This document shows, one piece after another, positions 3,838 through 23,188 of a stretch of 64,000 bases of DNA. The translations under genes and the position numbers were made by a program. The stretch is taken from the NCBI GenBank assembly GCA_035505375.1, contig DATJQV010000075.1, forward strand, positions 83,393-147,392, in the 5' to 3' direction. The notes beneath the pieces were generated by a model, which ran no database searches, had not been told where the DNA came from, and worked only from the letters and a program-made list of their open reading frames with translations. How positions within the stretch are numbered: position 1 is the first letter of the stretch; each line of letters opens with the position of its first letter. This DNA comes from a bacterium. Lineage in GTDB: Bacteria; Hydrothermota; Tepidihabitantia; Tepidihabitantales; Tepidihabitantaceae.

Positions 3838-3952
3838 CCCCCGATCTCTAGTCTCCAGTCCCTCGCCCCTCGTCCCTAATCCCCACCCCCAAGTCCTTCT
3901 TCCCCAACTTCTCGCTTCTCGCATCCAGCTTCTCGCTTCTGACTTCGTCTGC

Positions 3953-8861: not shown

Positions 8862-9161
8862 TAGTACCTCACCATCAAGTGACCATCAAGTAGAGCTAGT
8901 TCAAACCAATGCGTTGACTCATAGACACTCATGGCCATAGACATGCTTCTACAGACTGCCGCCGTCAGGATGAGTATCAAGTTCTGCGTCTGGCTTCGAC
9001 TAGAGTCGCCATCCACTAATCCGGCCTCGCTCAGTCGGGATTGCGTTACCGAATTGCATCCGAATTGCATCCAGAGCACTCGCGCTCGTGGATTGGCTAT
9101 ATGCCGTAACATCCTAAAGCAAGATGACTTACCGAATCGCGGCTGGGCCGCCGTACATGGG

Positions 9162-10819
9162 TCATTGCCGTCCGGATTGCTGTTCGATTGCATCTGGGTC
9201 CGGACCAATGAACCACCGTCCGGATCTGGTCTTGCCCCGGCAATGAACGCGGTTCTCGGCCTTCAACTCGCGGAGCAATGTCTGCATTTGGGCGCGCGAC
9301 AGGCTCGGGTCATTCAGCGCGCCGAGCAACTCGCGGAGCGGGCTGCCCTGCCCCTTGAAGGCCTCCAGATGCTGTAGTACCAGCTCCTTCAACCGCGCCC
9401 GGTCCAGTCCCCGACGCCTTGTGTAGCCGGCCTTATCACCCATTGCCGCGTAGAGCTTCCTTGCCAACAGGTACTTCATGCCCCGGGCGCGTCCTGTAGT
9501 CTCAACCAACCCCATCTCCCTGAGTCCGGCCAGGCGCGGTGCCAGGTTTGCGGGAACCACCTCGCCGCGGCGCAGAAGGTCGAGCACCAACAGATCCTCC
9601 GTCTGGAACGAACGCACACGTTCAGCGCCTACACGTTCCAGAAACCGTAGGAATCCCTCGTCCTGCACTGCACCCTGAAGCGTAAGCATGACCTGGTGCT
9701 CGTCGGTGCCGTTGAAGTCGGGCAGAGGCTTACTCTCGCGGATGGCAGTCTCGTACATAACGTTGGCCCTTGCCCAGAACGTTCGACCAGGCCGCACTTC
9801 GCGAGCACCTCGGCAATGCGTCGGTTGCGTGGACTCTGCCTGTAGAGGATGTTGTCGCGGGTGATGCCGCTGGGAAACCCGCCCGGGCTGACTACTTCCA
9901 GTCGCCGTGGGTATTGTCGCACAAACACCGACTCGGCCATTCGGTAGTCGCGATGACTCACGGCGTTTAGCAGTGCCTCGCGTACCACGCGCTCGCTGAA
10001 CGTCGGAATGTCCCAGATGAACAGCCCGTCTTGGAAGTGCTGGCTGTCGTTACGCAGGTTGATGGTCTTCCACAACTCGTCATCGAACGAGAAGAACCCC
10101 TGTCTGTATTCCTTCCTGTCCTGCGCAGGCCCGGTCGCATCGCTGGAACGATACTCGAAGACAATCTCCGCTTGAGCAAGGTCCCGCCCGAGGGCCATGC
10201 GAGTACCCAGCAGGATCAACGCCGCGTAGGTCACGCGTCCGTCCACCAGAAGCTCCGCGTCCGACAGAAGCTGCCCAGTGGACATGCCAAGCAGGTCGGC
10301 GCGTCCCGACTTCCGGTTCCACCGCTCGCGCAGTCGCTCGATGGCAACCTGGTCGAGCGCGTCCAGCGTCGCCCCGGGGCATATCTCTGCCGAGAAATCC
10401 GGCCCGGTCTCATCGAAGATGCGCCGCAGCATGTCTTCCGTCATGGCGGTCAGGCTATCACCTGAGCGCATCCAGTAGACACCGTCGTACCGCAACGGTA
10501 CGCCGATCGGCCGGGACGGTACATCGAACACGACCACCCGTCCGTGTGGGTGCTGAACCTCGACGCCGTCAATCCGCAGGTGCAGTATCTGAGTCAGGTC
10601 GCACCTGCGGTGCTCCAAGTCGCGGAAAGCATCAGTACCGACCACGCGGCGCGGCTTGAGGTTCGTAACACCAAGGATGAGCTTGCCGCCACGCTCGTTG
10701 GCCAGGGCGCAGCAGTACTTCCGCAGTTTCTCGATGTTGAAGTCGTGCTCGGCCTTCTTGAACTCAAGATGCTCGTCTTCCTCCGTCAGAAGCAACTCGT
10801 TCAACTGCTCAGCGGTCAT
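9162..10819 (-). pseudogene. RecG-like/Schlafen AlbA_2 (divergent AAA) + HATPase-type putative transcriptional regulator, split by a frameshift near 9765-9778
   Basis: ORF 9629-10819 encodes the AlbA_2 N-domain and ATPase-like region and runs out of frame after ...CGLVERSGQG. ORF 9162-9797 (GTG start) continues the same protein family (ANVMYETAIRESKPLPDFNGTD...) in another frame. The junction lies in a GGG/CCC run. Confidence 0.65.
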
Positions 10820-10915
10820 CTACTTCATCTCCGCATACAGCCGCCCGTTCGCAGTTCTCCGGATTCACCAACGTCTCCGCATCCTCGTGGAGGATGTCCC
10901 CGCTAGTGAACTCCA

Positions 10916-12367
10916 TCACTCCTCGCCCTCCGCATCATGGCTTGCGAGAGCTTCCTCGTTCGCCTCCTCCAATTCCTCCGGCGCTTCCGCCTCCGGTTCC
11001 TCAACTTCCTCCGTCTCATCCGGCAGATTCGTGGCGGCTTCGCGCACGTCCAGTTTGCCTGTCACCACGTCCGCCACAAGCCGAGTCCGGTACTCGCGTA
11101 GAAGGAGCACCTCAGCCTCCACTCGGGCTATTGCGGCATCCAGCGCAGCGGTCTGTGCCGCTATGTGCTCAAGCAAGCTCTTCTGTTCCGCAATCCCCGG
11201 CAGCAGAATCGGAAACGCGCGCAAGGTTGTGCTGTTTGTAGAGGCGAGATTCGTGGTCTGCTTAGCTGTCAGTTGGAAGTAGGCACGCCCATGCATGGAC
11301 ACCATGAGGCCTTCAAGGAACTCGGGAATCATGATGTCCTGTCTGCAACGGACGGCGAAAATGTGATTCTGGTGCAGGCAGTTCGGAATCTCGTCATGCC
11401 ACACACAACCGCGGCCGAGCTCGTCGATGTCTCCTCCCTCGGTCATCAGAACGTCTCCAGCACGCAGCGTCGCGCCGGATGCCTCTTTCACAGGGACGCT
11501 GATGTGCTTGATATGTCCGAGGTCAAGGCGGCCGGCTTGAACGTTAGCCACGCGGAGGTAGGGTCGTGACTCAATGGTGACTCCTTCGTAGCGCTTCCCA
11601 AGTGTTAGTCCGGTCTGCACGGTCGCCGCGTCTTTGAGCCGAGCAATTCTCCAATGCTCAGGTATGCCTCCCAGCCAAGCGACCCCGGACGGTTTGTACT
11701 TTGGATACGGCTTCCCAGTGCGGACGTCAATCTGACCGGTCACGGCCTGGTGGATAATGGCTTGCTTCTGCTCGTTCAGCCGCGCAATCAGCCTCTGCTT
11801 CGCCCGGATGTACTTCCGAATCCGCCGGTCAACGTGGTCAAGGTAGCGCACGATGGCGGATTGCTCCGCCAGAGGCGGTTTGCACGATACGATCATCCTG
11901 AAGTGCTCGGGCCTGAGGCTCCACATATCTGACGTGATGCCGTAGGACCAACGTTCCGCCTCCTTGGCGAAAACCGGAGTTCGCATGAGGTAGTGGAAAT
12001 AGCGCGGACTCGATCCCTCGCGCGGGCGCTGCACGACGTATGCAGGGCTAACGATTCCACGTAGGTCGGACACTCCGACCGCACCTTGCCATGCCCGCAT
12101 CTTGTTGTAAGCGATGTCTCCGGGACGAACGAGCTTGTAGGCGGACTTGTCCAGATTCGAGCCGTCCTTCTTCGAGCTATCTGCCAGCAATGCTTGCTGA
12201 CGAATCACGCCCCTCGTGATAGTCACGGACAGCATCGGTTCGTCTGGATGGTCGCGCTCTTTGACTTCGGCGAAGAGGGCGCGGTTAGGCAACACATCCC
12301 AATGCTCCGGCACGTCTCCCAGCCACGGCACGCCGGAAGGCTTGTAGGATGGGTAGGGTGTTTTCAA
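10916..12367 (-). CDS. hsdS: type I restriction-modification specificity subunit (HsdS), two target-recognition domains
   Basis: Duplicated YPSYKPSGVPWLG / YPKYKPSGVAWLG motifs with conserved central and C-terminal coiled-coil spacers typical of HsdS. Confidence 0.85.
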   Translation of the reverse strand: MKTPYPSYKPSGVPWLGDVPEHWDVLPNRALFAEVKERDHPDEPMLSVTITRGVIRQQALLADSSKKDGSNLDKSAYKLVRPGDIAYNKMRAWQGAVGVSDLRGIVSPAYVVQRPREGSSPRYFHYLMRTPVFAKEAERWSYGITSDMWSLRPEHFRMIVSCKPPLAEQSAIVRYLDHVDRRIRKYIRAKQRLIARLNEQKQAIIHQAVTGQIDVRTGKPYPKYKPSGVAWLGGIPEHWRIARLKDAATVQTGLTLGKRYEGVTIESRPYLRVANVQAGRLDLGHIKHISVPVKEASGATLRAGDVLMTEGGDIDELGRGCVWHDEIPNCLHQNHIFAVRCRQDIMIPEFLEGLMVSMHGRAYFQLTAKQTTNLASTNSTTLRAFPILLPGIAEQKSLLEHIAAQTAALDAAIARVEAEVLLLREYRTRLVADVVTGKLDVREAATNLPDETEEVEEPEAEAPEELEEANEEALASHDAEGEE

Positions 12368-12373
12368 GCCTGT

Positions 12374-13312
12374 TTATTTCGCTATCGGAACGCCATACTG
12401 AAGAAGCAGGCTTTCAAGGTGCCGACCATCGATGAGCCTGACCATTTTCATCTCGGGGCGGTTGGCCTCCTTGATGGCCCCCGCGCTGAACTCCCCAGAC
12501 GTAACAACCATGCACTCGGCCGGGCCTGCGGCCCCTCTGATCTTCTGTATATCTGGAGCCTGCACTTTGGCCTTCCAGTGCTTCACCTGCACTTTGACGG
12601 CGACCGTGCCGCCCGAATCCAGCGGACGGTGTCCCTCGACATCTACTCCGCGGTCGTGCGTCGCTGGGGTCACGACGACGCGATCGTAGCCAACTGCCGA
12701 AAGGAGATCTCCCACCAGTTGTTCAAGTTGCGTTGGCGACAGGCTGCGCAATCCGGCCGGAGCCATTGGTGTGGCAGGAGCGCCTGCCTGTGAAGCTGGG
12801 CTGGGCGTGGACATGCCGACCAAACCCACTGCTCCCCCGGCAAGACGCACGAACCGGGGTTTCTCGCCGCGCGCGACGCGGTCTCGGGTGTCCTGATAGA
12901 CGCGCCCAAGAACCATGTTCTCAAACTTCCCGCTCCGCGAGGAGAACAGCTTCTGGCTGGTGATCTCTGCAGCCAACTCCTTCGCCGTCATAGGATGTCC
13001 AACGGACCGCAACACATGTTCTACGGCACCGAGTATCTTCATCGGCCCGCGTGGCACGGTCGTGACCGCCTCCCTGTCGGCAGGCTGCTCTGACGCCAGC
13101 CTGAACAAGCCGCCTCGTGAGCCGTGCCGAAAGCGCGAGGCGGAACCATTGCTCTTCGTGTCCGCGCATAGCCTCGACCCCACGACATGCCCGAAGTCCT
13201 TGGCGGTTGGCAGAAAGAGCTTCTGCGACACAATCCTCTTGGCGATCTCTCGGTAGTGCAGCTCGACTCGCGCTTGGGACAGCACTTCGTGGGCCGCGTC
13301 TAGAATCTCCAT
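12374..13312 (-). CDS. mrr: Mrr-like type IV restriction endonuclease with two N-terminal winged-helix (HARE-HTH / Mrr_N) domains and a C-terminal Mrr_cat PD-(D/E)xK domain
   Basis: Two repeats of a ~90-aa wHTH module. The C-terminal region has the D...(E/D)xK signature (DRGVDVEG...VKVQVKHW). Embedded between hsdS and hsdM, a known arrangement. Confidence 0.65.
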   Translation of the reverse strand: MEILDAAHEVLSQARVELHYREIAKRIVSQKLFLPTAKDFGHVVGSRLCADTKSNGSASRFRHGSRGGLFRLASEQPADREAVTTVPRGPMKILGAVEHVLRSVGHPMTAKELAAEITSQKLFSSRSGKFENMVLGRVYQDTRDRVARGEKPRFVRLAGGAVGLVGMSTPSPASQAGAPATPMAPAGLRSLSPTQLEQLVGDLLSAVGYDRVVVTPATHDRGVDVEGHRPLDSGGTVAVKVQVKHWKAKVQAPDIQKIRGAAGPAECMVVTSGEFSAGAIKEANRPEMKMVRLIDGRHLESLLLQYGVPIAK

Positions 13313-13429
13313 TGCGTTGCCTCCTTCGTCATCTCCGCAATCTCTTCCTCCGCTTTCGGGCTTCGTCTAGCTCATGGGGCGGCGGGCCAGCGTACATTGA
13401 GACCGTGCCTGCAAAGAACCGGCGCGGCG

Positions 13430-15556
13430 TCACTCCAACGCCTCCTTGAGCAATCCTTCGGTCTCCTTCTCCAGTGCCGCGATGTCGGCCTTGATCTCTT
13501 CAAGAGTCCGAAGCGGCTGGGGCTTGTAGAAGTAGCGGTTGAAGCTGATTTCGTAGCCAATCTTGGTCTTGGATTCGTCTATCCAGGCGTCCTTGGCATA
13601 AGGCAGGACCTGGCGTTGGATGAAGGCTTCGATGCCACCGTCTTCAAGCAAAGGCACTTGCTCGGTGTCGCGTAGCTCCGTATCCGGTTCGTACTCGACG
13701 GCATACTGCCTGCCGACAACCATGGCCTCGAACAGACCGCGCAGAGGATCCACCTTCGTCTTGAAGAGCGGGTACGCCTTCTTGACGACAGGCACCCCGT
13801 TCTCATCGCGCTCAGCCAGGTTGTTCTTGAGCAGGTTCTCTCGCTTCACGGGGAAGTAGAAATCTTCCTTCAGTGCTGCCTTGCGTGCTTCTGTCAGGAA
13901 GGCATTGAAGTCCATGTGCGGCCCTGAGCCGAGTGATTCGGCCAGCTTGTCGGCAAAGGCAGGCAGATCCTCGTCCTTGGCCTTGGCGCAGGCAAACTTG
14001 AGCCGCGCTCGGCTGGCGTGGTTGAACTCGACCTTGAGCCTCAGCGGACGCTCGACCGTGACCTTCCAGTAGCCGAAGGCCTCGTTCGGAAAGACCTTGG
14101 ACTGCTCGGTCTCTTTGAACTCAAGGAAGGTGTCGGCGATCCGCCTGATGTCAGCATCCGAGAGCCGGCAGTTCTTCTTGCCGAGGTTCTTTCGCAGAGG
14201 CTCGAACCACTGGGTCGCATCGATAAGCTGAACCTTGCCTTTGCGATGCTCGGGTTTGCGGTTGGAGAGGAGCCAGATGTAAGTGGCGATACCGGTGTTG
14301 TAGAAGATGTTGAGTGGGAGCGCGATTATCGCTTCCAGCCAGTCGTTCTCGATTATCCAACGCCGGATGTTACTCTCGCCCTGTCCCGCGTCGCCGGTGA
14401 AGAGCGACGAACCGTTATGGACCTCGGCGATGCGGCTGCCGAGCCTGGTGCCGACCTTCATCTTGCTGAGCATATTGGCAAGGAACATCATCTGGCCATC
14501 GCTGGAACGGGTCACGAGCGAATACTCCGGGTCGCCTGCGTGAGTGATGATGAATCGCGGGTCCTTGATGCTGTCCTTGCCGCCCATCTTCTCCATGTCG
14601 TTCTTCCAGCTCTTGCCGTAGGGCGGGTTGGAGAGCATGAAATCGAACTTCAGGCTGGCAAACCCGTCATGGGAAAGCGTGGACCCAAAGACGAAGTTGT
14701 CGGCCTCTTCACCCTCGCCCTTGAGCACCAGGTCTGCCTTGCTGATGGCATAGGTCTCGGGTTCGACTTCCTGACCGTAGAGGTGAATCGAGGGGTCCTT
14801 GCCGTGGTCCTTGGCCATATCGAGCAGACGTTGCTCGGACACGGTTAGCATCCCACCGGTCCCGCACGCGCCATCGTACACGAGGTACGCGCCGGACACG
14901 ACCTTGTCCGCCACCGGCTTAAGCACAAGGTCGGCCATGAGCGTTACAATGTCGCGGGGCGTGAAGTGCTCGCCTGCTTCTTCGTTGTTCTCTTCGTTGA
15001 ACCGGCGGATGAGTTCCTCGAAGATGGTGCCCATGCCGTGGTTGTCGAGTCCGGGCAGGCGCTCAGAGCCGTCACTGTTCAGCGCAGGCTTGGGGCTGAG
15101 GTTGATGGACGGGTCGAGGAACTTCTCAATCAGGCCGCCGAGGATGTCGGCTTCCACCAGAGTCGGCACCTGGTTGCGGAACTTGAACTTCTCGATTATC
15201 TCCTGGACGTTAGGCGAGAAGCCGTCGAGGTACGCCTCGAAGTCGGCCTTGAGTGTCTGCGCCCGGCCACGGGAGCGCAAGTCGCGAAGCATGAACGCAG
15301 AGGCGTTGTAGAACGACTGCCCGGCTGCCTGTCGCAGCGGCGCTTCCTGGCTGGAGATCTTCGACTTGTCGAGGCGATCCTTCATGTCGAGCACGGCCTT
15401 CTTGGTTGGCTCCAGCACGGCATCCAGCCGCCTGATGACCGTCATCGGCAGGATGACGTCGCGGTACTTGCCGCGTTTGTAATAGTCGCGGAGCACGTCA
15501 TCGGCGATGCCCCAGATGAAGTTGGCAATCCAGTCCAGTTGTGTCGGTTCCATCAC
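13430..15556 (-). CDS. hsdM: type I restriction-modification DNA methyltransferase subunit (HsdM, N6-adenine)
   Basis: HsdM N-terminal domain (MMEPTQLDWIANFIWGIADDVLRD...). SAM-binding region and catalytic NPPYG motif (LSNPPYGKSW). Confidence 0.9.
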   Translation of the reverse strand: MMEPTQLDWIANFIWGIADDVLRDYYKRGKYRDVILPMTVIRRLDAVLEPTKKAVLDMKDRLDKSKISSQEAPLRQAAGQSFYNASAFMLRDLRSRGRAQTLKADFEAYLDGFSPNVQEIIEKFKFRNQVPTLVEADILGGLIEKFLDPSINLSPKPALNSDGSERLPGLDNHGMGTIFEELIRRFNEENNEEAGEHFTPRDIVTLMADLVLKPVADKVVSGAYLVYDGACGTGGMLTVSEQRLLDMAKDHGKDPSIHLYGQEVEPETYAISKADLVLKGEGEEADNFVFGSTLSHDGFASLKFDFMLSNPPYGKSWKNDMEKMGGKDSIKDPRFIITHAGDPEYSLVTRSSDGQMMFLANMLSKMKVGTRLGSRIAEVHNGSSLFTGDAGQGESNIRRWIIENDWLEAIIALPLNIFYNTGIATYIWLLSNRKPEHRKGKVQLIDATQWFEPLRKNLGKKNCRLSDADIRRIADTFLEFKETEQSKVFPNEAFGYWKVTVERPLRLKVEFNHASRARLKFACAKAKDEDLPAFADKLAESLGSGPHMDFNAFLTEARKAALKEDFYFPVKRENLLKNNLAERDENGVPVVKKAYPLFKTKVDPLRGLFEAMVVGRQYAVEYEPDTELRDTEQVPLLEDGGIEAFIQRQVLPYAKDAWIDESKTKIGYEISFNRYFYKPQPLRTLEEIKADIAALEKETEGLLKEALE

Positions 15557-15715
15557 GAACCCTCTTTCTTACCGATAGGCCAGTCAATCACGCGGAGGTT
15601 ATAGCCGGAAAGCTCGCCGCAGTCAGGCGCGTGCCGTAGAACCTAGCAGTCGTCAGTGCCGCCGGGAGCGGCAGGGCTGTCGCTCTGTGGCAGATTCGTC
15701 GATTAGGCGTCCTCG

Positions 15716-16168
15716 CTAGCGACGTACCACCGGGAGGACAAGCGGCGGAAGGCCCATGCGCACGACAGTGCTTTGTACGTACTCGCGGAAGTATGGCCAA
15801 GTGTTCAGGGGGAGGTTGTTCGTGCAGAAGATCTGGAAGTAGTCCTTGGTCATCGGCTTTGCGACTCGGTATACGACCTCGAATGTGCAGCTGATTCGCA
15901 GTAGAGGTATCTTGGGTTCATCCTTGTACGCCGCCATGAAAACGCAGGTCTGAATAACCTTGCATGTTGCCTCGCCCTCCATCTGGAATGAGACTTTGTC
16001 TTCGATCCCCAGGTCCATCTCACGTTTGAAGTCGACTTTGTCTACGAGAAGCTCTGCGGATAGGGCCCGAGCCGCGATGTTCAGCAGATCGAGCCCCCGA
16101 ATGAACTCGGCATACTCCCTGGGGCTTACTTTCGGGCGTGCGGGCCGCTTGACCGCGGTTGCACTCAT
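15716..16168 (-). CDS. hypothetical protein, translationally coupled downstream of hicB
   Basis: Its start ATG overlaps the hicB stop by 4 nt (ATGA), with an AGGAAGG RBS. 150 aa with no recognisable family. Confidence 0.45.
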   Translation of the reverse strand: MSATAVKRPARPKVSPREYAEFIRGLDLLNIAARALSAELLVDKVDFKREMDLGIEDKVSFQMEGEATCKVIQTCVFMAAYKDEPKIPLLRISCTFEVVYRVAKPMTKDYFQIFCTNNLPLNTWPYFREYVQSTVVRMGLPPLVLPVVRR

Positions 16169-16725
16169 ATTGCCGCCTTCCTGTGGAAACTTATGTTGCC
16201 GGGGTCAGGGAGTGCGAACTCGCTGCCCCCGCATGATACACCGGCCAAACCCCTGAGCTGCTTGCGGGCGTTCCATGGATCACGAAGCACTATCTCTTCG
16301 AGGTCATCTCTCAAACGGTCAGCGGTGGACAGAGTTCTGGACAGACGAACGTCAAGCGCGTGCGTCACTACGCCCTGAGCGAGTACGACAGCCACAAACT
16401 GGTTTAGACTCGTTCCTTGCTCCTCTGCCTGTCTCGCAAGCTGGCGATGCAGAGCGGCCGGCAGGCGAACGACGAACTTGCCCGAGAATTCCCTTGCTTC
16501 CTCGGGCAGTGGTATCTCGATGTTTGACTGGTAGGCTTCCTCCAGCCAGAGTTCTCGCGCTTCCTTGATGTTGGCCATTGCCTCCTCTAGTGTTTCGCCT
16601 TGAGTCATACAGCCGGGCAGGTCCGGCACTGACACGAAGTACCCGCCTTCCTCCTGCTCATGCACCTGCACGGGATACTTCAGGTTCACGTAGTAGGCCA
16701 AGTCCTTCTCATTCCTGCGGTTCAT
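16165..16725 (-). CDS. hicB: HicB-family antitoxin with C-terminal extension
   Basis: N-terminal HicB/UPF0150 domain (YPVQVHEQEEGGYFVSVPDLPGCMTQGETLEEAMANIKEA). This is followed by an RHH-like DNA-binding segment (GKFVVRLPAALHRQLARQAEEQGTSLNQFV). Confidence 0.7.
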   Translation of the reverse strand: MNRRNEKDLAYYVNLKYPVQVHEQEEGGYFVSVPDLPGCMTQGETLEEAMANIKEARELWLEEAYQSNIEIPLPEEAREFSGKFVVRLPAALHRQLARQAEEQGTSLNQFVAVVLAQGVVTHALDVRLSRTLSTADRLRDDLEEIVLRDPWNARKQLRGLAGVSCGGSEFALPDPGNISFHRKAAI

Positions 16726-16957
16726 CTGTTGCCTCCAGGTCCAGCGTCGTGATAATGTCCTTTAAGTACGATTTCTTGTAGGATTTGCTGTGTGTGGCCA
16801 AGACGAGCCGGCGACCATTATCGCCCCAAATCTCGTGACTGCCTTTTGTTCTTCGCAGAGTCCATCCAAAGTGTTTGAGTATCGCTCGTACGTCTTGGCA
16901 TGCCATCTCGGCAGGCCTCGAAAGAAGTCGAGCGACGAGCTTCTTGACGCTGGACAA
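16709..16957 (-). CDS. hicA: HicA-family mRNA interferase toxin
   Basis: 82 aa with the conserved HicA core ...RTKGSHEIW... Overlaps hicB by 17 nt. Confidence 0.8.
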   Translation of the reverse strand: MSSVKKLVARLLSRPAEMACQDVRAILKHFGWTLRRTKGSHEIWGDNGRRLVLATHSKSYKKSYLKDIITTLDLEATDEPQE

Positions 16958-17289
16958 CGTCCCATGATACTACCCTTAGTATTAGATGTCAACATCGGAG
17001 TTGTGGATTCGTGTGGGCCCGCCATGAAATGGCCGGCTAGCCAGGTCCGCTGGTTTGGACACCTTCGCTGATCACGTGGAGTGTACCAGAGTGGTGTAGT
17101 GCCTTAGCCCGCAAGTTGAGCGGAAGCATTGGGCCTGGGGGCTAGCCTCTTCGGAACTCCAGGCAGGACATCTTGCCCAATGCTATGCGCCTCCGCCGGC
17201 CGCTGCGGAAGCACGATGGTCGACGTTGGCGGCTCTCGGTCACCCCCCCCTGCCCGAAGCCTGCAACCTGCGTTTGAGGTTTGCATTTC

Positions 17290-17530
17290 GCAGTTATCCA
17301 CGCGCTTCCGGTACAACAGCAATTATTAGCAAAAGAACCTGTTGCTGCTGTTGGGATGTGGATAATGTGGATAACTCACAATTTCTACCATTAGTAGTAT
17401 CAACCACTGTACACTACCACTAGTGGTTGATTATCCACATAGTTATCCACATCCTGTCCACATTCATCCACCATTTGGCCATTCCGGCCAGATACCACCT
17501 ATTGTATCCACCGAGTTATCCACACCACTA
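17290..17530. promoter_or_regulatory. cluster of DnaA boxes in a locally AT-rich segment (candidate replication origin or DnaA-titration/regulatory locus)
   Basis: Five perfect consensus boxes: TGTGGATAA x2 (17357-17365, 17366-17374) and TTATCCACA x3 (17431-17439, 17443-17451, 17516-17524). At least four 1-2-mismatch boxes (17294, 17454, 17464, 17504). The surrounding ~200 bp is markedly AT-rich relative to the window. A 9-bp inverted repeat TCAACCACT...AGTGGTTGA lies at 17399-17430. Confidence 0.6.
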
Positions 17531-17640
17531 CAGATAGGTGTTGACATTGGAGTCCTGTCCGGCATTGTTGGTTAATGACCGATGAGAAATCCGTTTCAGA
17601 CACCGGGCTATTCCCCGGGCAGTCCCGGGGCCTGCCCCCT

Positions 17641-17800
17641 AGCGAAGGCATGGGAGAAATCAGAATTCAGAGACCAGAAACCAGAATTCAGAATGCCCGG
17701 CCGGGGAAGTTCGAATAGGAAACCACGGATGGACACAGATGAACACGGATACGGCATCGGATAGAGCTGAATTCAGAGACCAGAAACCAGAATTCAGATA
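17641..17800. repeat. MITE-like dispersed repeat, inverted copy (right flank of island)
   Basis: The reverse complement matches 3953-4070 at ~95% over ~115 bp, including both CAGAGACCAGAATTCAGA termini. Confidence 0.6.
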
Positions 17801-17826
17801 CGCTGACGAAGAGCCAGGATGGCGGT

Positions 17827-18429
17827 TCAGCGCCTGCGTCGGCGCCGATCGCGAGCGACGAAGTCCGAGCCTGAGCCGGTGTGGCCGGGTTTGTCGTCGT
17901 CGGTGATGAATCCGATACGTTTCTTCCTTGGCGCAGGCGGCAGCATGAGCTGTTTGATAGTGGCAAAGACCACCTGGAAGTTCCGGTCGTGCGTGGCCAG
18001 CTTGCGTTCAAGTTCGGCGAGCTTGATGGCGAGCTGTCGCTGGTCGGCCAGCATGCGACGCATTCGTATGAACGCCCTCACCACAAAGACGCTGACATCG
18101 ACCGCCCGTTTGGATCGCAGGACGCTCGCGAGCATGACAGTTCCATGTTCCGTGAATGCGTAGGGGCGACTTGACGAGTGCCTGAGCGCCACCAACCGGT
18201 CGCATTTTGCGACCAGTTCATCCTTCTCATCGAGTGTCAACTCGAACATGAAACCTTCGGGGAATCGTTCCCGGTTGCGCCGGACTTGTTCCTTCAGTCG
18301 GCGGGTCGTGACGCCGTAGACTTCGGCCAGGTCGACGTCCAGCATGACACGTTCGCCACGTATCTCCAGAATGGCACTGTCTATTCGCTCGGCGGGGATG
18401 AGGTATCCGGAGTCTTTGGGCGCGGTCAC
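17827..18429 (-). CDS. ORF6N (KilA-N-like) DNA-binding domain protein
   Basis: The N-terminal ~110 aa matches the ORF6N/antirepressor-like fold (LEIRGERVMLDVDLAEVYGVTTRRLKEQVRRNRERFPEGFMFELT). Typical of phage/mobile-element cargo. Confidence 0.65.
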   Translation of the reverse strand: MTAPKDSGYLIPAERIDSAILEIRGERVMLDVDLAEVYGVTTRRLKEQVRRNRERFPEGFMFELTLDEKDELVAKCDRLVALRHSSSRPYAFTEHGTVMLASVLRSKRAVDVSVFVVRAFIRMRRMLADQRQLAIKLAELERKLATHDRNFQVVFATIKQLMLPPAPRKKRIGFITDDDKPGHTGSGSDFVARDRRRRRR

Positions 18430-18570
18430 GGGCCTAGGATACCGGCGAAGGGTGCTGAGTCAAGGCGCGGCGCGGGAATTCCCGGCGACGCAATAGGCGA
18501 TTCCCGCAGAAGGGGGTCCAGGATTCAAGGATCCGAGGAATCTAGTGGCGGGTGGCGGGCACCGGATGGT

Positions 18571-18636
18571 TCAGAAGTCAGAAACCAAAACGCGAGACGG
18601 GGAACAATCCAGAATCCAGAAACCAGAATTCAGAGT
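18571..18636. repeat. partial copy of MITE-like repeat family (terminal module)
   Basis: CAGAAGTCAGAAACC...CCAGAATCCAGAAACCAGAATTCAGAG, near-identical to segments at 20861-20935 and 21056-21100. Confidence 0.5.
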
Positions 18637-18717
18637 TGCCCAGGAAAGGAATCGAGAGATCGAGGGAGAGGGTGCGCGGCTTGCCATCGGAGAGAATCTG
18701 GCTATCATCTGGCCAGA

Positions 18718-19029
18718 ATGAAGTACCGGGTCGCATTCGCGCCCGAAGCCCTCGATGATTACCGCCGCCTCTCGGCCCGAACCAGGGCCGAAGTCAGGGA
18801 TGCCATCAACCGGCACCTGCTGCACCAGCCGACCCGGTTGAGCCGAAGCAGTATCAAGCGGCTGCGTGGGACCCGGAAGCCGCAATACCGCCTGCGCGTC
18901 GGGGACGTGCGCGTCTTCTACGACGTGCGAGAGGATGAGGTGGTGGTGCTGGCTGTTGTTGAGAAATCGCGCGCTGCGGAATGGCTTGAGAAGACTGGAG
19001 AATTCGATGAAGAGAGTAGCGCTGGCTGA
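18718..19029 (+). CDS. RelE/ParE-family type II toxin
   Basis: 103 aa: MKYRVAFAPEALDDYRRL...YRLRVGDVRVFYDVREDEVVVLAVVEKS. Typical RelE/ParE fold signature. Confidence 0.75.
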   Translation: MKYRVAFAPEALDDYRRLSARTRAEVRDAINRHLLHQPTRLSRSSIKRLRGTRKPQYRLRVGDVRVFYDVREDEVVVLAVVEKSRAAEWLEKTGEFDEESSAG

Positions 19030-19330
19030 GGTAAAGGACCACCTTTCCGAGTATCTGAACGAGGCGGCAGAGGAGGAAGTCGTCATCACCCGACATGGCC
19101 GTCCGGCCGGTGTGCTCATCGGCTTCGCCGGCGAGGACGACTGGTTCGACTACCGGCTGGAGAACGATCCGCGGTTTGTCGCACGGATCGCGAGGGCGCG
19201 GGGTAGTGCCCGGGCCGGGAAGGCCATTCCGTGGGAGGACGTGCAAGCGGGCGCGGAGTCGGCCTCGGGCGGGTTCAGCGTTTCAGACCGGCCGGCCACA
19301 CGTTCACCCAGGCGGCGAAGCCGCACTTAG
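19007..19330 (+). CDS. Phd/YefM-family antitoxin (toxin-first arrangement, overlaps toxin by 23 nt)
   Basis: MKRVALAEVKDHLSEYLNEAAEEEVVITRHGRPAGVLIGF... The internal ATG is in the same frame as the listed ORF 18866-19330. Confidence 0.6.
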   Translation: MKRVALAEVKDHLSEYLNEAAEEEVVITRHGRPAGVLIGFAGEDDWFDYRLENDPRFVARIARARGSARAGKAIPWEDVQAGAESASGGFSVSDRPATRSPRRRSRT

Positions 19331-19570
19331 CAGCCGGGCGCTGGCCGCGAGACACTGTCCTTCGTACGTCGTCCATCGTTCTTCGTCCTGAGTCTACTGT
19401 CCACAGTCCATAGTCCGTCCGTCTCCTCGTCCTTCGTCTGAGCTCTCTGCGTCATCTGCGCAATCTGCGGTTAGTCTTCTCCGGCCTGGCGGTTAATCCA
19501 TTTTCGATTGACGATTGCCGATTTCAGATTGCCGGACCGGTATCCGAAGCGGAGAGCGGTCGGCGGACTG

Positions 19571-19700
19571 CTTGACTGATAACTTGACTAATACACGCGG
19601 CTGCGCCGCGAGTTTCCAGTGACCAGTTTGCAGGTGGCGGCTGCGGACCGCGACTTGACCAATAACTTGACTAATACTTGACTGATTATTAGACTTGTCC
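19571..19700 (+). promoter_or_regulatory. iteron-like direct repeats (CTTGACTAATAC / CTTGACTGATAA) immediately upstream of fic
   Basis: Six or more copies of TTGACT(A/G)ATA(A/C) in two blocks (19571-19594, 19653-19700). A second copy of the block lies at 21186-21222. Confidence 0.4.
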
Positions 19701-19701
19701 G

Positions 19702-20709
19702 ATGACATTTGAGCCGAAGTTCACGGTTTCGGCCCGACTGCTGACGCTGGTCGAGGAGGTTGCGGCGCTACGCCAGCAGGTGGTCTCTTCGGCCGTGCAG
19801 GTGGCGTGGATTCCCCGGCTGCAGCAGGAGGCACGGGTGCGCAATACGCACAGCTCGACCGCCATCGAGGGCAATCCGTTGACCCAGGCCCAGGTCCGGG
19901 CGCTGGCTGAGGGCCGCGAGGTCCCGGCGATCGCGGACCGGTCCCGGCAGGAGGTGCTGAACTACTTCGCCGGGCTGCGGTTGATCGAGACGCACGCGAA
20001 GAAGAAGACGGTCACGCGCCGAGACGTGCTGCGGTTGCACGCGATTGCGGCGCACGGCGTGATGGACCAGGGACAATCGGGCGAGTTCCGCCGGATCCAG
20101 GTCTGGGTCGGCGGGCACGTGCCGCCTCCGCCGGAGCGGGTGGAGGAACTCATGGCCGCGCTCCTGGATTGGTGGAACGGGCCGGCGCGTAAGCTGTCTT
20201 CGGTCATTTCCTCCGCGGTCCTTCACTATCGGTTCGAGGAGATCCATCCGTTCGGCGACGGCAACGGCCGGGTCGGACGGCTGCTGGCTTTGTGGGAACT
20301 CTACCGGCGGGGTTTCGACACCCACCATATCTTCGCGGTTGACGAGTACTACTGGCATGACCGTCCGCGCTACTATCGGCAGTTGGCGGACGTGCGCAAG
20401 CACGGCGGCAATCTGACCGGCTGGCTTGAGTACACGGCCGAAGGTCTGCTTAAGGCGCTCGGCAATGCGCGGGACCGGATTCAGGCGATCTCGGCTGAGT
20501 CCGGGAGCGAGCCGATTCTGCTCCGTCCGAGGCAGGAGCAGTTGCTGCGCATGTTGCGCGACGAGGGACAGCTGGCCCCGCGCCGGATATGGGAAGGGCT
20601 GGGCGTCTCCCGGCAGGGCGCGATGGACCTGCTGCGACCGCTGCTTGCGGCCGGGCTGGTGAAGCGCATCGGCACGAGGAAGTCGGGCAAGTACACGCTG
20701 GCGCAGTAG
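19702..20709 (+). CDS. fic: Fic-family protein (AMPylation/adenylyltransferase domain) with C-terminal winged-helix
   Basis: Canonical Fic motif HPFGDGNGRVGR. C-terminal HTH-like region. Confidence 0.85.
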   Translation: MTFEPKFTVSARLLTLVEEVAALRQQVVSSAVQVAWIPRLQQEARVRNTHSSTAIEGNPLTQAQVRALAEGREVPAIADRSRQEVLNYFAGLRLIETHAKKKTVTRRDVLRLHAIAAHGVMDQGQSGEFRRIQVWVGGHVPPPPERVEELMAALLDWWNGPARKLSSVISSAVLHYRFEEIHPFGDGNGRVGRLLALWELYRRGFDTHHIFAVDEYYWHDRPRYYRQLADVRKHGGNLTGWLEYTAEGLLKALGNARDRIQAISAESGSEPILLRPRQEQLLRMLRDEGQLAPRRIWEGLGVSRQGAMDLLRPLLAAGLVKRIGTRKSGKYTLAQ

Positions 20710-20767
20710 GCGCGTCGCCGAAACGCGGGCACGGGACAGGTATTCACCACCAAGACGCGAAGGATCG

Positions 20768-21100
20768 GACAATTCAGAAACCAGAGACAAGAATGCGGGA
20801 GTGGTAGAAGAGGGGTCGAGGAGTCGAGGAGTCGAGGGATCCAGTGGCGGGCACCCGATAGTCCAGAAATCAGAAACCAAAACGCGAGACGGGGAACAAT
20901 CCAGAATTCAGAATCCAGAGACCAGAATTCAGAAGTGGTAGAAGAGGGGTCGGGGGTTCAAGTGGTCTAGTGGTCCAGTGGATGAGTTCGGATCAGGCAG
21001 GCGTCGGAAGCGGGAGAGAAGAAGGGATCGAGGGATAGAGTGGCGGCCACCGGACAACTCAGAAGTCAGAATTCAGAGACCAGAAACCAGAATTCAGAAT
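20768..21100. repeat. cluster of three MITE-like repeat fragments with associated CGAGGGAT..AGTGGCGG leader blocks
   Basis: Copies at 20768-20800, 20861-20935 and 21056-21100. Each is preceded by GTCGAGGGAT(C/A)(C/G)AGTGGCGG(G/C)CACC, as is 18541-18570. Confidence 0.5.
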
Positions 21101-21185
21101 TGCGGGCGGAACTGCAAGACATCCGAACGCAGTAGTCCACTGCCTTGGCGAGCTTGGAGGTTGTTCTGGCTGCGGACGGCGGCCT

Positions 21186-21222
21186 GCTTGACTGATAACT
21201 TGACTAATACTTGACTAATACA
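21186..21222 (+). promoter_or_regulatory. second copy of CTTGACTAATAC direct-repeat block
   Basis: CTTGACTGATAACTTGACTAATACTTGACTAATAC. Preceded by the GGCTGCGGAC motif also seen at 19639. Confidence 0.4.
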
Positions 21223-21670
21223 AACAGGGGTCCAGGATTCGAGGTTGGCCGCGGCGGCCCCTGTCGGACAGCGCTGCCCGGCAATCGGTGTAATCTGTGA
21301 AATCGGTGGATGTCCCTTCCTTGTCCGCCCGTCTCCTCGTCCCCCGTCCTTCGTCTGAGCTATCTGCGACATCTGCGTCATCTGCGGTTTACCCACTCTG
21401 TGCCCTTGTGTTGGACTCCCATGCCGGATTCCGGCGACTGTCTCCCCAGACCCGAGAGTGAAGGCACGAAAGAACGCATCAAACCCGAAGTCCGAAGCTC
21501 GAAGCCCGATTCAAGTGCGAAATCGGGCCTTTTGCACTTCGGGTTTCAATCGTCATTCTACCTTCGAGCTTCGAGCTTGGTACAAAAGTGTCTCCCCGGC
21601 CATCTATTTCGAATTCAGGGTGTCTGCGGCGGCTTGACTGAGGTGGAGAGGCCGGTAGGCTTTAAGGAGT

Positions 21671-23188
21671 ATGTTCGGAGCCCTGTGCGCGGTAGTGTTT
21701 GCCGTGGTGTTCTCCGCACCGCTGCCTGTCTCGGGCCAGGCGGAGAGCCTGCCCGCGCCGGTCCGGCACGGTTATTCGTTCGAGCAGCTCTCCAATAGCC
21801 GGTACTCGGTCCACGCCGGGTTCGACGATTCGCTGCCGGCTCAGGTGATGGCCAACGTCCTGTGGGCGATGAGCCGGGCGCCGCGCGCGGGCAGCGAGTA
21901 CCGTGAGTTCTACGTGGCCACGCCGGAGAATGTGTATCGGTACGACCCTTCGAATCTTCTCCTGACGCTGTACCGCGCCGGGGACCACCGCTACAATTCC
22001 GGCTCGGCGTTCGAGGTCGGTGTCGCCGCCGGCCGGCCGGAGGAGACCGGCATGGCGATTCAGGCCGGGCTGCTCGCCGGAACCGCGTTCCGGAGAATGA
22101 CGAATGACGAAGGTCGAACGTCGAATGGCGGACAATCAGCAATCAACGTGGTGAGCTGCCCGATGGAGTGGGCGGCAGACCACGCCGCGGCCGATTGGAA
22201 TCCCGCCCACCCGATTCGGATGGTGAACGTGTTCGGCAGCGCCCCGGCGGCACCGCTGGATACCGTCTGCGTGGCCCGGTCAACGGACTCGAGCCTGCCG
22301 CTGCCGCACGTGGTCGGGCCCGATACGTTCGAGGCAGTGGTCGCCGACCTGGGTCAGGATTCTTCGTTCAGCCCGGTTGAGCTTTCACAGGAGAACCTGT
22401 CGCAGCTCTGCTGGGCCGCCTACGGAGTGACCCCGCACGCCACCTACAATCGCCGGCAGGGGCTGACCGTGCCGAGCGCGATGGCCGACTATTATCTCAC
22501 GGACCGCATCTATGTGGTCGGGCAGGACGAGGTGGGCCGGTATCATAACCGGCTCGCCGACACCGAAGTGACGACGCGCGACCACCGGCTGGAGCCGGTG
22601 ACTATAGGCGACCGCCGGCCGCAGTTGCGGGCAGCCTCGACCCGGATTCCCGGAAGCGCGCCGACCTATTTCGTGGTCTGCGTGCCGGATACAACATCGG
22701 AATCGGCCTTGATGGAGGCGGGGTTTGCCGGGTTCCAGTTGCTCGCGCAGGCAAGGGCGCTCGGACTTGCCGGGTGTCTCGTGGTGCCGCTCAGCCGGGC
22801 CGAGCGGAGGGACATTGTCACGGCGCTCCAACTGCCCGACGGCCACGTTCCGGCGCTGGTCTTCGCGGTCGGCGAAGCCGGAGCCGGCGCAGCGCAGCGC
22901 GGTCCGGCGGCCGGGGTCGTCACCATCGTCCGGGCGCAGTCGGCGATGCGCCAAAGCAGCCTGCAGGTCGAGTACCGGCTGAGCCAGGCCGGGCAGGTAA
23001 GGGCCCAGGTCTACGACATGCTCGGTCGGCCGGTCAGGCTGCTCGTGAATGAGCAGCAGTCATCCGGCTATCACACGGTAGTCTGGGACGGGACCGGCGA
23101 AGACGGCGCGCGGCAGAAGCGCGGCACGTATCTGCTCGTCATCATCTCCGGCGGAACCGTCGCGCAGCACAAAGTCAACATCGGCTAG
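21671..23188 (+). CDS. secreted SagB-type dehydrogenase/nitroreductase-fold-like protein with C-terminal T9SS/FlgD-Ig-like sorting domain
   Basis: Signal peptide. A central region has weak SagB-like signatures (RRQGLTVPSAMADYYL...GRYHN). The C-terminal ~75 aa match the tail shared by the other T9SS-type proteins here (YRLSQAGQVRAQVYDMLGRPVRLL...GTYLLVI). Confidence 0.4.
   Translation: MFGALCAVVFAVVFSAPLPVSGQAESLPAPVRHGYSFEQLSNSRYSVHAGFDDSLPAQVMANVLWAMSRAPRAGSEYREFYVATPENVYRYDPSNLLLTLYRAGDHRYNSGSAFEVGVAAGRPEETGMAIQAGLLAGTAFRRMTNDEGRTSNGGQSAINVVSCPMEWAADHAAADWNPAHPIRMVNVFGSAPAAPLDTVCVARSTDSSLPLPHVVGPDTFEAVVADLGQDSSFSPVELSQENLSQLCWAAYGVTPHATYNRRQGLTVPSAMADYYLTDRIYVVGQDEVGRYHNRLADTEVTTRDHRLEPVTIGDRRPQLRAASTRIPGSAPTYFVVCVPDTTSESALMEAGFAGFQLLAQARALGLAGCLVVPLSRAERRDIVTALQLPDGHVPALVFAVGEAGAGAAQRGPAAGVVTIVRAQSAMRQSSLQVEYRLSQAGQVRAQVYDMLGRPVRLLVNEQQSSGYHTVVWDGTGEDGARQKRGTYLLVIISGGTVAQHKVNIG

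What the first reader, a model, noticed from the sequence alone, without database searches (positions are those of the whole stretch)
15716..16957. hicA-hicB operon extended by a translationally coupled 150-aa ORF and an unusually long HicB
hicA (82 aa) overlaps hicB by 17 nt. hicB is 186 aa, about 50 aa longer than typical, and its stop overlaps the ATG of a 150-aa ORF by 4 nt (ATGA), with an RBS in place. The third protein (MSATAVKRPARPKVSPREYAEFIRGLDLLNIAARAL...) matches no family I recognise. Three-gene TA-like operons, in which a third component is a chaperone, a regulator or a second effector, are an under-described class. The location inside a defence island raises the possibility of an abortive-infection module built on HicAB.
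Basis: partly seen in the sequence, partly recalled or inferred. Interest (0 to 1): 0.5.

Follow-up and report, generated by a model that had tools for sequence, protein, structure and literature searches.

The report
HicAB toxin–antitoxin with SecB-like chaperone
The three overlapping genes are a toxin–antitoxin–chaperone (TAC) module, a kind of system known since 2011: a HicA RNase toxin, a HicB antitoxin whose extra tail makes it depend on a chaperone, and a dedicated SecB-like chaperone. This is a new example of a known system, not a new kind.

Summary
On the minus strand, hicA (16709-16957), hicB (16165-16725, 186 aa) and a 150-aa ORF (15716-16168) overlap by 17 nt and 4 nt.

The "unknown" third protein is a SecB-like chaperone. 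Its AlphaFold model (pLDDT 87.6) best matches the M. tuberculosis TAC chaperone Rv1957 bound to its antitoxin peptide (PDB 5mtw, TM 0.72-0.77). It also hits the PADLOC model for CmdC (PD-T4-9_C, E 6e-7).

Of 34 related loci (35 sequences scanned, window included), about 20 have a HicB gene immediately upstream of the chaperone gene. The others have MqsA or HTH antitoxins.

The long HicB tail goes with the chaperone gene. Sampled short HicBs (134-135 aa) have no chaperone. An 89%-identical relative loses homology exactly at HicB residue 150. It lacks both the distal tail and the chaperone gene.

This is therefore a HicAB-class TAC, a class described by Sala 2013 and shown to be chaperone-dependent by Bordes 2016 (Methylomonas Mmet-TAC). 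A role in phage defence is plausible: the module sits in a defence island, and other TACs defend against phage. That role is untested for HicA-type TACs.

Verdict: new member of a known kind, modest interest.

The parts
16964..16992 (-). Sigma-70-like promoter candidate: TTGACA (16992-16987), 17-nt spacer, TATCAT (16969-16964). The -10 element ends 6 nt before the hicA TTG start, so the transcript would be leaderless or nearly so.
   Evidence: 11 of 12 consensus matches, and 3 sites in the region against 0.7 expected from shuffles; both hexamers are identical in the 89%-identical relative L047. Function as a promoter is inferred, not shown.
16967..16982 (.). Palindrome ATACTA-N4-TAGTAT between the -35 and -10 elements, overlapping the -10. 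Candidate operator for the HicB ribbon-helix-helix domain (autoregulation).
   Evidence: Read directly from the sequence. In L047 both arms are conserved while 2 of the 4 central bases differ. The arms are only 6 nt, so a chance match is possible. The operator role is an inference from how type II TA operons are usually autoregulated.
16709..16957 (-). hicA: 82-aa HicA toxin with a TTG start. The conserved G39-S40-H41 motif is present.
   Evidence: Pfam HicA_toxin 7.4e-10. The His aligns with the KGGH motif of 1whz (weak, E 0.1). N-terminal residues 1-17 align with the HicAs of L006/L023. The 4 substitutions in codons 10-15 relative to L047 are all synonymous.
16165..16725 (-). hicB: 186-aa antitoxin. 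It has an N-terminal HicA-binding domain (aa ~9-77), a ribbon-helix-helix domain (aa ~81-120) and a C-terminal extension.
   Evidence: Pfam. PDB HicB hits 6u0i, 6hpb and 6g1n cover the N-domain only. AF2 model, pLDDT 84.5. Alignment A4.
16168..16278 (-). Distal HicB tail, aa 150-186: predicted chaperone-addiction (ChAD) element. It contains P150-W151-N-A-R-K-Q-L157-R-G159, F170 and F180, and ends -KAAI.
   Evidence: pLDDT falls from 73 (aa 151-160) to 51-60 for aa 161-186. A W-containing motif recurs in chaperone-linked HicBs. The motif resembles the Mtb ChAD core EVPTW108HRLSSY114RG116 (PMC6377645). This segment and the chaperone gene are both missing from the 89%-identical relative L047/L048, where homology ends at window 16272.
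15716..16168 (-). SecB-like TAC chaperone (SecB^TA), 150 aa, translationally coupled to hicB through the ATGA overlap.
   Evidence: PADLOC PD-T4-9_C (CmdC) 6.2e-7. Profile against PDB sequences: 5mtw_C Rv1957, E 0.0017. AF2 pLDDT 87.6. Foldseek top hit 5mtw (E 1.6e-8, TM 0.72-0.77), followed by SecB structures 1ozb, 1fx3 and 1qyn. L140-P-P-L143 aligns with Rv1957 L154-P-P-L157, which contact ChAD Y114. The family has 3662 cluster representatives.

Best explanation
The locus is a tripartite toxin-antitoxin-chaperone (TAC) module of the HicAB class.

What the sequence and comparisons show:
- The gene order is toxin, antitoxin, chaperone, with translational coupling.
- HicA carries its conserved G-S-H motif.
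- HicB is a normal N-domain plus ribbon-helix-helix antitoxin with a C-terminal extension.
- ORF3 has the SecB fold and is closest to dedicated TAC chaperones.
- The HicB extension and the chaperone gene occur together across genomes.

What is inferred from characterised TACs (M. tuberculosis HigBA1-SecB^TA, Methylomonas HicAB-TAC, E. coli HigBAC and CmdTAC):
1. The distal HicB tail (about aa 150-186, with W151, L157, F170 and F180) is a chaperone-addiction element. It makes free HicB prone to aggregation or proteolysis.
2. The SecB-like tetramer binds this tail as HicB is made. HicB can then neutralise the HicA RNase and repress the operon promoter through its RHH domain.
3. When the chaperone is titrated away, HicB is lost. 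In known antiphage TACs, a nascent phage structural protein competes for the same groove.
4. Freed HicA then cleaves mRNA and growth stops, which gives abortive infection or stress-induced stasis.
For: Anatomy.

Chaperone identity:
- PADLOC CmdC model, E 6e-7.
- Best PDB sequence hit is the Rv1957 SecB-like chaperone.
- Confident AF2 model. Its best structural matches are Rv1957 with the ChAD peptide, then canonical SecBs.
- The LPPL groove motif that contacts the ChAD in Rv1957 is conserved.

Conserved synteny:
- The chaperone's homologs at 51%, 38% and 36% identity all follow a hicB gene.
- Pfam was run on 35 antitoxin-position sequences (the window plus 34 non-redundant related loci). 20-21 are HicB, 3 are MqsA and about 9 are HTH antitoxins. 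The gene gaps run from an overlap to +19 nt, mostly -4 to +19.
- HicA is detected in 10 of the toxin-position ORFs.

Tail and chaperone go together:
- HicB lengths are bimodal.
- The long HicBs P0171 and P0204 are followed by SecB-like genes (hmmsearch 4e-55 and 1e-31). The short HicBs P0169, P0173 and P0184 are not.
- RHH-containing HicBs next to a chaperone gene have a median of 72 aa after the SLNQ motif.
- In L047/L048, an 89%-identical hicAB loses homology between D149 and P150. That HicB ends at 154 aa and no chaperone gene follows.

Literature:
- HicAB is a canonical TAC class (PMC3581621).
- Mmet-HicAB needs its SecB^TA through the HicB ChAD, aa 119-159 (PMC5105189).
- ChAD recognition uses aromatic residues (PMC6377645; bioRxiv 2024.02.24.581848).
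- The TACs CmdTAC, MqsRAC and HigBAC defend against phage (PMC9519451).

Defence-island context.
Against: - Nothing functional was tested here. Toxicity, chaperone dependence and phage defence are all inferred.
- ORF3 falls below the Pfam and NCBIfam SecB thresholds. Its assignment rests on fold, a profile hit and genomic context.
- AF2 predicts tail residues 107-161 as helix (pLDDT 73-95), so only about aa 162-186 looks disordered. The ChAD is usually described as intrinsically disordered.
- The tail ends -AAI, not the terminal Ala-Ala or Val-Ala ClpX degron of CmdA and Mtb HigA1. The protease route is therefore uncertain.
- One intermediate-length HicB (P0163, 159 aa) has no chaperone gene, so tail length alone is not diagnostic.
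- No HicA-type TAC has been shown to defend against phage. A 2023 survey of HicA genetic contexts does not mention chaperones at all.
Confidence: 0.88

Rival explanations
1. The module is a TAC, but its biological role here is not phage defence. It could instead be a stress-responsive growth switch (as proposed for M. tuberculosis TAC), or an addiction cassette that stabilises the adjacent type I R-M / defence island against loss.
For: The TAC class was first characterised as a stress-responsive system (PMC3581621, PMC5105189). The module lies directly upstream of hsdM on the same strand, with a 159-nt gap, and no terminator-like site was found on that strand. No phage trigger can be identified computationally.
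Against: The three TACs tested for it (CmdTAC, MqsRAC and an E. coli HigBAC) do defend against phage. The neighbourhood is dense in defence genes. Related chaperone loci occur in prophage contexts. The two roles are not mutually exclusive.
Confidence: 0.35
2. ORF3 is the organism's general protein-export chaperone SecB, which merely lies next to an ordinary hicAB pair. The long HicB tail is unrelated to it.
For: ORF3 has the SecB fold. It gives weak hits to Pfam and NCBIfam SecB models. TAC chaperones tested so far can substitute for E. coli SecB (PMC6377645).
Against: ORF3 is translationally coupled to hicB by an ATGA overlap. It scores far below the SecB equivalog cut-offs: 13-15 bits against 103-181. 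Its best sequence and structure matches are dedicated TAC chaperones. In nearly all of the 40 fetched homologous loci (L001-L040) a TA antitoxin gene lies immediately upstream. An 89%-identical relative lacks the gene together with the distal HicB tail, which would be unexpected for a housekeeping gene.
Confidence: 0.03
3. The third gene is a second effector or a transcriptional regulator of the TA pair rather than a chaperone. These were the first reader's other options.
For: None beyond its position in the operon.
Against: The confident model shows a SecB fold with no nuclease, enzyme or DNA-binding domain. There are no hits to effector or regulator families in Pfam, NCBIfam or PADLOC.
Confidence: 0.02

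Closest known systems
Mmet-TAC of Methylomonas methanica MC09 (HicA Metme_2813, HicB Metme_2812, SecB^TA); Bordes et al. 2016, PMC5105189
   Same: It has the same architecture and the same TA family: hicA, then a hicB with an RHH domain plus a C-terminal ChAD extension, then a SecB-like chaperone. It was shown experimentally that the chaperone is required for HicB to neutralise HicA, and that the HicB tail (aa 119-159) transfers chaperone dependence.
   Different: The window's HicB tail is longer: about 65-75 aa after the RHH domain, against 41 aa. ChAD sequences are not conserved between TACs. I could not retrieve the Mmet sequences, so the degree of homology between the two chaperones was not measured. 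The window comes from an uncultured bacterium (MAG) and sits in a defence island next to a type I R-M system.
M. tuberculosis TAC: HigB1-HigA1-SecB^TA (Rv1955-Rv1956-Rv1957), structure 5mtw
   Same: It is the best structural and PDB-sequence match for ORF3. The LPPL groove motif is conserved. The window's tail motif P-W-N-A-R-K-Q-L-R-G parallels the ChAD core P-T-W108-H-R-L-S-S-Y114-R-G116: a Trp, a hydrophobic residue at +6, Arg at +7 and Gly at +8.
   Different: The toxin and antitoxin families differ: HigB (RelE-like, ribosome-dependent) with an HTH HigA, against HicA (ribosome-independent RNase) with HicB. The chaperones are only 16-18% identical. HigA1 ends in the ClpX degron Val-Ala, whereas the window's HicB ends -AAI.
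CmdTAC (PD-T4-9), MqsRAC and HigBAC antiphage TAC systems of E. coli (PMC9519451; PMC11618068; bioRxiv 10.1101/2024.02.24.581848)
   Same: ORF3 hits the PADLOC CmdC model (E 6e-7). The three-gene logic is the same. These systems show that a TAC chaperone can act as the phage sensor: HigC binds lambda gpV in the ChAD groove, and over-supplying the chaperone abolishes defence.
   Different: The toxins differ: an ADP-ribosyltransferase, MqsR and HigB, against HicA. No HicA-based TAC has been tested against phage, and the trigger here is unknown.
Classical two-gene HicAB (E. coli, Burkholderia pseudomallei, Yersinia pestis; PDB 6hpb, 6g1n, 6u0i)
   Same: The HicA dsRBD-type toxin and the HicB N-domain are homologous. 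An RHH DNA-binding domain is present, as in the RHH subclass.
   Different: Classical HicBs are 138-148 aa, have no C-terminal extension and have no chaperone gene. The window's close relative L047/L048 is such a two-gene form.

Membership tests
TAC (toxin-antitoxin-chaperone) systems | Three genes in one operon, in the order toxin, antitoxin, SecB-like chaperone | tested here: met
   The genes are on the same strand with overlaps of 17 nt and 4 nt. The same order is seen in related loci.
TAC (toxin-antitoxin-chaperone) systems | The third protein has the SecB fold and is related to dedicated SecB^TA chaperones | tested here: met
   AF2 pLDDT 87.6. Foldseek top hit 5mtw Rv1957, E 1.6e-8, TM 0.72-0.77, followed by SecB structures. 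PADLOC CmdC 6e-7. PDB profile hit to Rv1957. Caveat: below the Pfam SecB gathering score (16.7 against 26 bits).
TAC (toxin-antitoxin-chaperone) systems | The TA pair belongs to a type II family known to partner with SecB^TA (HigBA, MqsRA, HicAB) | tested here: met
   HicA_toxin 7e-10; HicB_lk_antitox 1.7e-16 and HicB 1.7e-14. HicAB is listed as a TAC partner in PMC3581621 and PMC5105189.
TAC (toxin-antitoxin-chaperone) systems | The antitoxin carries a C-terminal extension (ChAD) that chaperone-less homologs lack | tested here: met
   Alignment A4. Bimodal lengths. A median of 72 aa after the RHH motif in chaperone-linked HicBs. Short HicBs have no chaperone gene. The 89%-identical relative lacks both the distal tail and the chaperone gene.
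TAC (toxin-antitoxin-chaperone) systems | The ChAD contains aromatic or hydrophobic short motifs that are recognised in the chaperone's client groove | tested here: inconclusive
   W151, L157, F170 and F180 are present. The W motif recurs in relatives and resembles the Mtb ChAD core. The LPPL groove motif is conserved in ORF3. No complex model or binding data could be obtained.
TAC (toxin-antitoxin-chaperone) systems | The antitoxin neutralises the toxin only when the chaperone is present (chaperone addiction) | not testable with these tools
   This needs toxicity and rescue assays.
Antiphage TAC / abortive infection (CmdTAC-like) | The system confers phage resistance, and activation comes from loss or titration of the chaperone during infection | not testable with these tools
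   Only context supports it: type I R-M, Mrr-like nuclease, PDC-S05 and SoFic neighbours.
Housekeeping SecB (NCBIfam TIGR00809 / PRK05751 equivalogs) | Scores above the equivalog cut-off and is a stand-alone export chaperone gene | tested here: not met
   13-15 bits against cut-offs of 103-181. The gene is always embedded downstream of an antitoxin gene.
HicA toxin | Conserved catalytic His in a G-x-H / GSH motif within the dsRBD-like fold | tested here: met
   G39-S40-H41 lie within the Pfam match and align with KGGH of 1whz. The catalytic role of this His comes from prior knowledge of HicA and was not tested here.

The most novel reading that the evidence does not exclude
The comparison with L047/L048 may capture a two-gene hicAB being converted into a TAC, or the reverse. 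Homology at 89% nucleotide identity runs from just upstream of the promoter to HicB codon 149 and stops exactly before the P-W motif. The 37-residue distal tail and the chaperone gene are then present or absent together. If the module was gained as a cassette, this would be a natural instance of the 'transferable ChAD/SecB^TA module' so far shown only by engineering.

If the module is also a phage sensor, it would be the first HicA-armed antiphage TAC, placed directly upstream of a type I R-M operon and possibly co-transcribed with it.
Probability: 0.35. Interest if true: 0.45.

Novelty: new member of a known kind. Interest (0 to 1): 0.27.

Why it matters
The result turns a 'hypothetical protein' and an oddly long HicB into a fully interpretable TAC system in an uncultured lineage. 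It shows that the public annotation under-calls the system: the chaperone is unnamed, and hicA is truncated or missed.

The SecB-like subfamily is large (more than 3600 cluster representatives at 50% identity) and falls below the curated SecB thresholds. HicAB-type TACs are therefore probably far more common than the literature's 'to a lesser extent' suggests.

The near-identical chaperone-less relative maps the boundary of the chaperone-addiction element to about residue 150. That gives a ready-made natural control for experiments.

HicA-type TACs have not been tested for phage defence. This locus, embedded in a defence island, is a reasonable candidate for such a test.

Tried and rejected
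- Curated libraries alone do not name ORF3. Pfam and NCBIfam SecB hits are sub-threshold, so I relied on PADLOC, a PDB profile search, AF2 with Foldseek, and synteny.
- The word-indexed homolog search for ORF3 gave only 11 hits. The exhaustive profile search was needed to see the family's size.
- The PDB sequence search for HicA gave only a weak hit to 1whz, E 0.1.
- Rfam found nothing in 15000-22000. No RNA element, such as a type III antitoxin or a riboswitch, is involved.
- No terminator-like site was found on the minus strand between ORF3 and hsdM. Whether the TAC genes are co-transcribed with the R-M genes stays open.
- I wanted a complex model of the HicB tail with the chaperone tetramer.
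- I could not obtain the Methylomonas Mmet-TAC sequences for a direct comparison.
- The 2023 survey of HicA genetic contexts contains no mention of SecB or chaperones, so it gave no classification for this arrangement.
- I considered and rejected three readings: ORF3 as housekeeping SecB, ORF3 as a second effector or regulator, and the ATG at codon 18 as the hicA start. The last is contradicted by the conserved N-terminus and the synonymous-only changes.
Full report
**Observation.** The minus strand carries three tightly packed ORFs.
- hicA is 16709-16957 (82 aa, TTG start).
- hicB is 16165-16725 (186 aa).
- ORF3 is 15716-16168 (150 aa).
- hicA and hicB overlap by 17 nt. hicB and ORF3 overlap by 4 nt (ATGA).
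- Shine-Dalgarno sequences precede hicB (GGAGG, 6 nt) and ORF3 (AGGAAGG, 7 nt).

Pfam confirms HicA_toxin (7e-10). For HicB it finds an N-terminal HicB_lk_antitox domain (aa 17-77) and a HicB/ribbon-helix-helix segment (aa 70-112), leaving about 70 C-terminal residues unassigned. Solved HicBs are 138-148 aa, so "about 50 aa longer than typical" is right.

**The third protein.** At curated thresholds ORF3 is unnamed, with Pfam SecB at E 0.007 and NCBIfam SecB at 13-15 bits. Other evidence identifies it as a SecB-like chaperone.
- It matches the PADLOC model for the chaperone of PD-T4-9/CmdTAC at 6e-7.
- A profile of ORF3 and its first 10 homologs has as its best PDB sequence hit the SecB-like chaperone Rv1957 of the M. 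tuberculosis TAC system (5mtw, E 0.0017). The hit covers the C-terminal helix motif WPYFREYV...GLPPLVL.
- The AlphaFold2 model is confident (pLDDT 87.6, pTM 0.78). It shows a four-stranded sheet followed by two helices.
- Foldseek against the PDB ranks 5mtw first (Rv1957 bound to the antitoxin ChAD peptide, E 1.6e-8, TM 0.72-0.77). Canonical SecB structures from Haemophilus influenzae and E. coli (1ozb, 1fx3, 1qyn) come next.
- ORF3 residues L140-P-P-L143 align with Rv1957 L154-P155-P156-L157. Those residues contact ChAD Tyr114, and mutating them impairs TA control.
- An exhaustive profile search finds 3662 cluster representatives at E<=1e-3 and 1237 at E<=1e-10. ORF3 is therefore a real, widely conserved protein.

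**Conservation of the three genes together.**
- Homologs of ORF3 at 51% identity (L001-L003) and at 38% by BLASTP / 36% in the alignment (L006-L008) are each preceded by a long HicB (181 and 173-177 aa) and a HicA-like ORF.
- A scan of one genome per species returned 32 further loci.
- In nearly all of them, an 80-110-aa ORF and a 150-250-aa ORF lie immediately upstream of the SecB-like gene, usually with a gap of -4 to +19 nt.
- Pfam on the 35 antitoxin-position proteins (the window plus 34 other loci) gives HicB in 20-21, MqsA in 3 and HTH (HigA-like) domains in about 9.
- HicA_toxin is detected in 10 toxin-position ORFs, Gp49/HigB-like in 3 and MqsR in 1.

These are the three TA partner families reported for TAC systems (PMC3581621; PMC5105189).

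**The HicB tail.**
- HicB homologs are bimodal in length. Of the 120 listed, 64 fall at 120-149 aa and 42 at 160-199 aa.
- The long HicBs P0171 (178 aa) and P0204 (182 aa) are followed by SecB-like genes (hmmsearch 4e-55 and 1e-31). The short HicBs P0169, P0173 and P0184 (134-135 aa) are not. One intermediate HicB (P0163, 159 aa) is not either.
- RHH-containing HicBs next to a chaperone gene have 56-77 residues (median 72) after the conserved SLNQ motif.
- AF2 models the window's tail as a continuation of the second RHH helix to about residue 148, a short helix at 150-161, and a low-confidence C-terminus from 162 to 186.
- The alignment shows a recurrent Trp motif about 40 residues after the SLNQ motif of the RHH (PWN, TWN, MWSF, PWD) and a second hydrophobic or aromatic patch near the C-terminus.
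- The window's P150-W-N-A-R-K-Q-L-R-G159 parallels the M. tuberculosis ChAD core P-T-W108-H-R-L-S-S-Y114-R-G116. This is a resemblance, not a test.

**A natural control.** Two metagenome contigs (L047, L048) are 89% identical at the DNA level to window 17010-16272. That span runs from just upstream of the promoter, through hicA, to HicB codon 149. Homology then stops abruptly between D149 and P150. Their HicB ends five residues later (154 aa, P0160), no SecB-like gene follows, and the downstream gene is unrelated. So the distal tail (aa 150-186) and the chaperone gene are present or absent together in near-identical backgrounds. This is what a ChAD/SecB^TA unit would predict, and it matches the engineered transferability of that unit (PMC5105189).

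**Expression signals.**
- The best promoter-like site is TTGACA-17-TATCAT at 16992-16964 (11 of 12 matches).
- A palindrome ATACTA-N4-TAGTAT (16967-16982) lies between and over the hexamers. It is a candidate HicB operator, which is an inference.
- The -10 element ends 6 nt before the TTG start, so hicA mRNA would be leaderless or nearly so.
- The TTG start is supported in two ways. Residues 1-17 align with HicAs of other TACs. In L047 the promoter, the palindrome arms and the TTG are conserved, and the four substitutions in codons 10-15 are all synonymous.
- Public gene calls give a 65-aa HicA starting at Met18, or none at all.
- No terminator-like site was found between ORF3 and hsdM on the minus strand.

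**Context.** Downstream on the same strand lie:
- hsdM (13430-15556);
- an Mrr-like/PDC-S02 nuclease (12374-13312);
- hsdS (10916-12367);
- an AlbA_2/Schlafen protein (9629-10819);
- hsdR (5859-8861).

Upstream lie:
- an ORF6N/PDC-S05 gene (17827-18429);
- ParE-Phd;
- SoFic (19702-20709).

The defence-island setting is real.

**Interpretation.** The defining genomic and structural features of a TAC system are met. Chaperone dependence and biological role cannot be tested here.

The mechanism is inferred from characterised TACs. The SecB-like tetramer binds the ChAD tail of HicB, which keeps HicB soluble and protected so that it can neutralise the HicA RNase. Loss or titration of the chaperone frees HicA.

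In E. coli HigBAC the titrating agent is a nascent phage tail protein that competes for the ChAD groove. In CmdTAC and MqsRAC, extra chaperone abolishes defence. Whether this HicA-type TAC defends against phage is unknown. The tail ends -AAI rather than the terminal Ala-Ala or Val-Ala ClpX degron, although 13 of 35 chaperone-linked antitoxins surveyed end in -AA.

**Comparison and novelty.** HicAB-type TACs were catalogued in 2013 (PMC3581621). One of them, Methylomonas Mmet-TAC, was shown to be chaperone-addicted through the HicB tail in 2016 (PMC5105189). The window's locus is therefore a new member of a known kind.

The modest points of interest are:
- the natural tail-plus-chaperone presence/absence polymorphism;
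- the apparent abundance of this sub-threshold SecB-like family;
- the absence of any phage-defence test for HicA-type TACs, together with the silence of a recent HicA context survey on chaperones.

Noticed in passing
L004:3351-4453, L005:3351-4453, L013:2097-3189, L014:2304-3402: In TA06, WOR-3 and Stahlbacteria MAGs, the SecB-like gene follows a short HicB (101-119 aa). This HicB has the N-domain plus a tail of about 35 aa ending -AA, with no ribbon-helix-helix domain. A HicA-like ORF lies upstream. L005 lies in a Mu-like prophage (Mu Gam, CI-type repressor, Mu portal). Sala 2013 stated that all TAC HicBs have an RHH domain, so this may be an undescribed TAC variant without a DNA-binding domain.
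   Followed up: partly
window 16955-16992 (minus strand): The hicA TTG start lies only 6 nt after the -10 hexamer of an 11/12 promoter match, which implies a leaderless or near-leaderless UUG-initiated mRNA. Public gene calls for identical contigs give a 65-aa HicA starting at Met18, or omit hicA altogether.
   Followed up: partly
window 3912-4497, 17647-17798, 20762-21106: Dispersed intergenic repeats built from units such as CAGAATTCAGAGACCAGAAACCAGAATTCAGA recur in several intergenic regions around the island. Their nature is unknown: possibly REP/MITE-like elements, or binding-site arrays.
   Followed up: no
window 5859-15556 (minus strand): The type I R-M genes are split up. hsdM (13430-15556) and hsdS (10916-12367) are separated by an Mrr-like/HARE-HTH nuclease (PADLOC PDC-S02, 12374-13312). 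hsdS and hsdR (5859-8861) are separated by an AlbA_2/Schlafen-HATPase protein (9629-10819) and small unassigned ORFs.
   Followed up: partly
window 17827-18429 and L001:4945-5283: An ORF6N-domain gene (PADLOC PDC-S05, E 1e-54 in the window) lies next to the HicAB-type TAC both in the window and in the 51%-identity relative L001. This could be a recurrent association or a coincidence.
   Followed up: no
window 18715-19330 (plus strand): A ParE-family toxin (18715-19029) is followed by, and overlaps, a Phd/YefM antitoxin ORF (ending at 19330). This is toxin-first order, which is unusual for ParDE and Phd-Doc type pairs. SoFic follows at 19702-20709.
   Followed up: no
alignment A2 (antitoxins upstream of SecB-like genes in the window, L001-L040): 13 of the 35 chaperone-linked antitoxins end in Ala-Ala, and 21 of 35 have Ala at the penultimate position, whatever their family (HicB, MqsA or HTH). 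This is consistent with a widespread ssrA-like ClpX degron at the end of ChAD tails. The window's HicB ends -KAAI.
   Followed up: partly
phage records KY271395.1:7129-7335, PV340577.1:5272-5478, NC_007917.1:26989-27384: tblastn with ORF3 finds SecB-like C-terminal halves in Klebsiella phage 2b LV-2017 (no annotated feature) and Escherichia phage PhiR70_1 (hypothetical protein). It also finds a full-length weak match in Clostridium phage phiCD119, annotated as SecB. These are likely phage-borne TAC chaperones.
   Followed up: no
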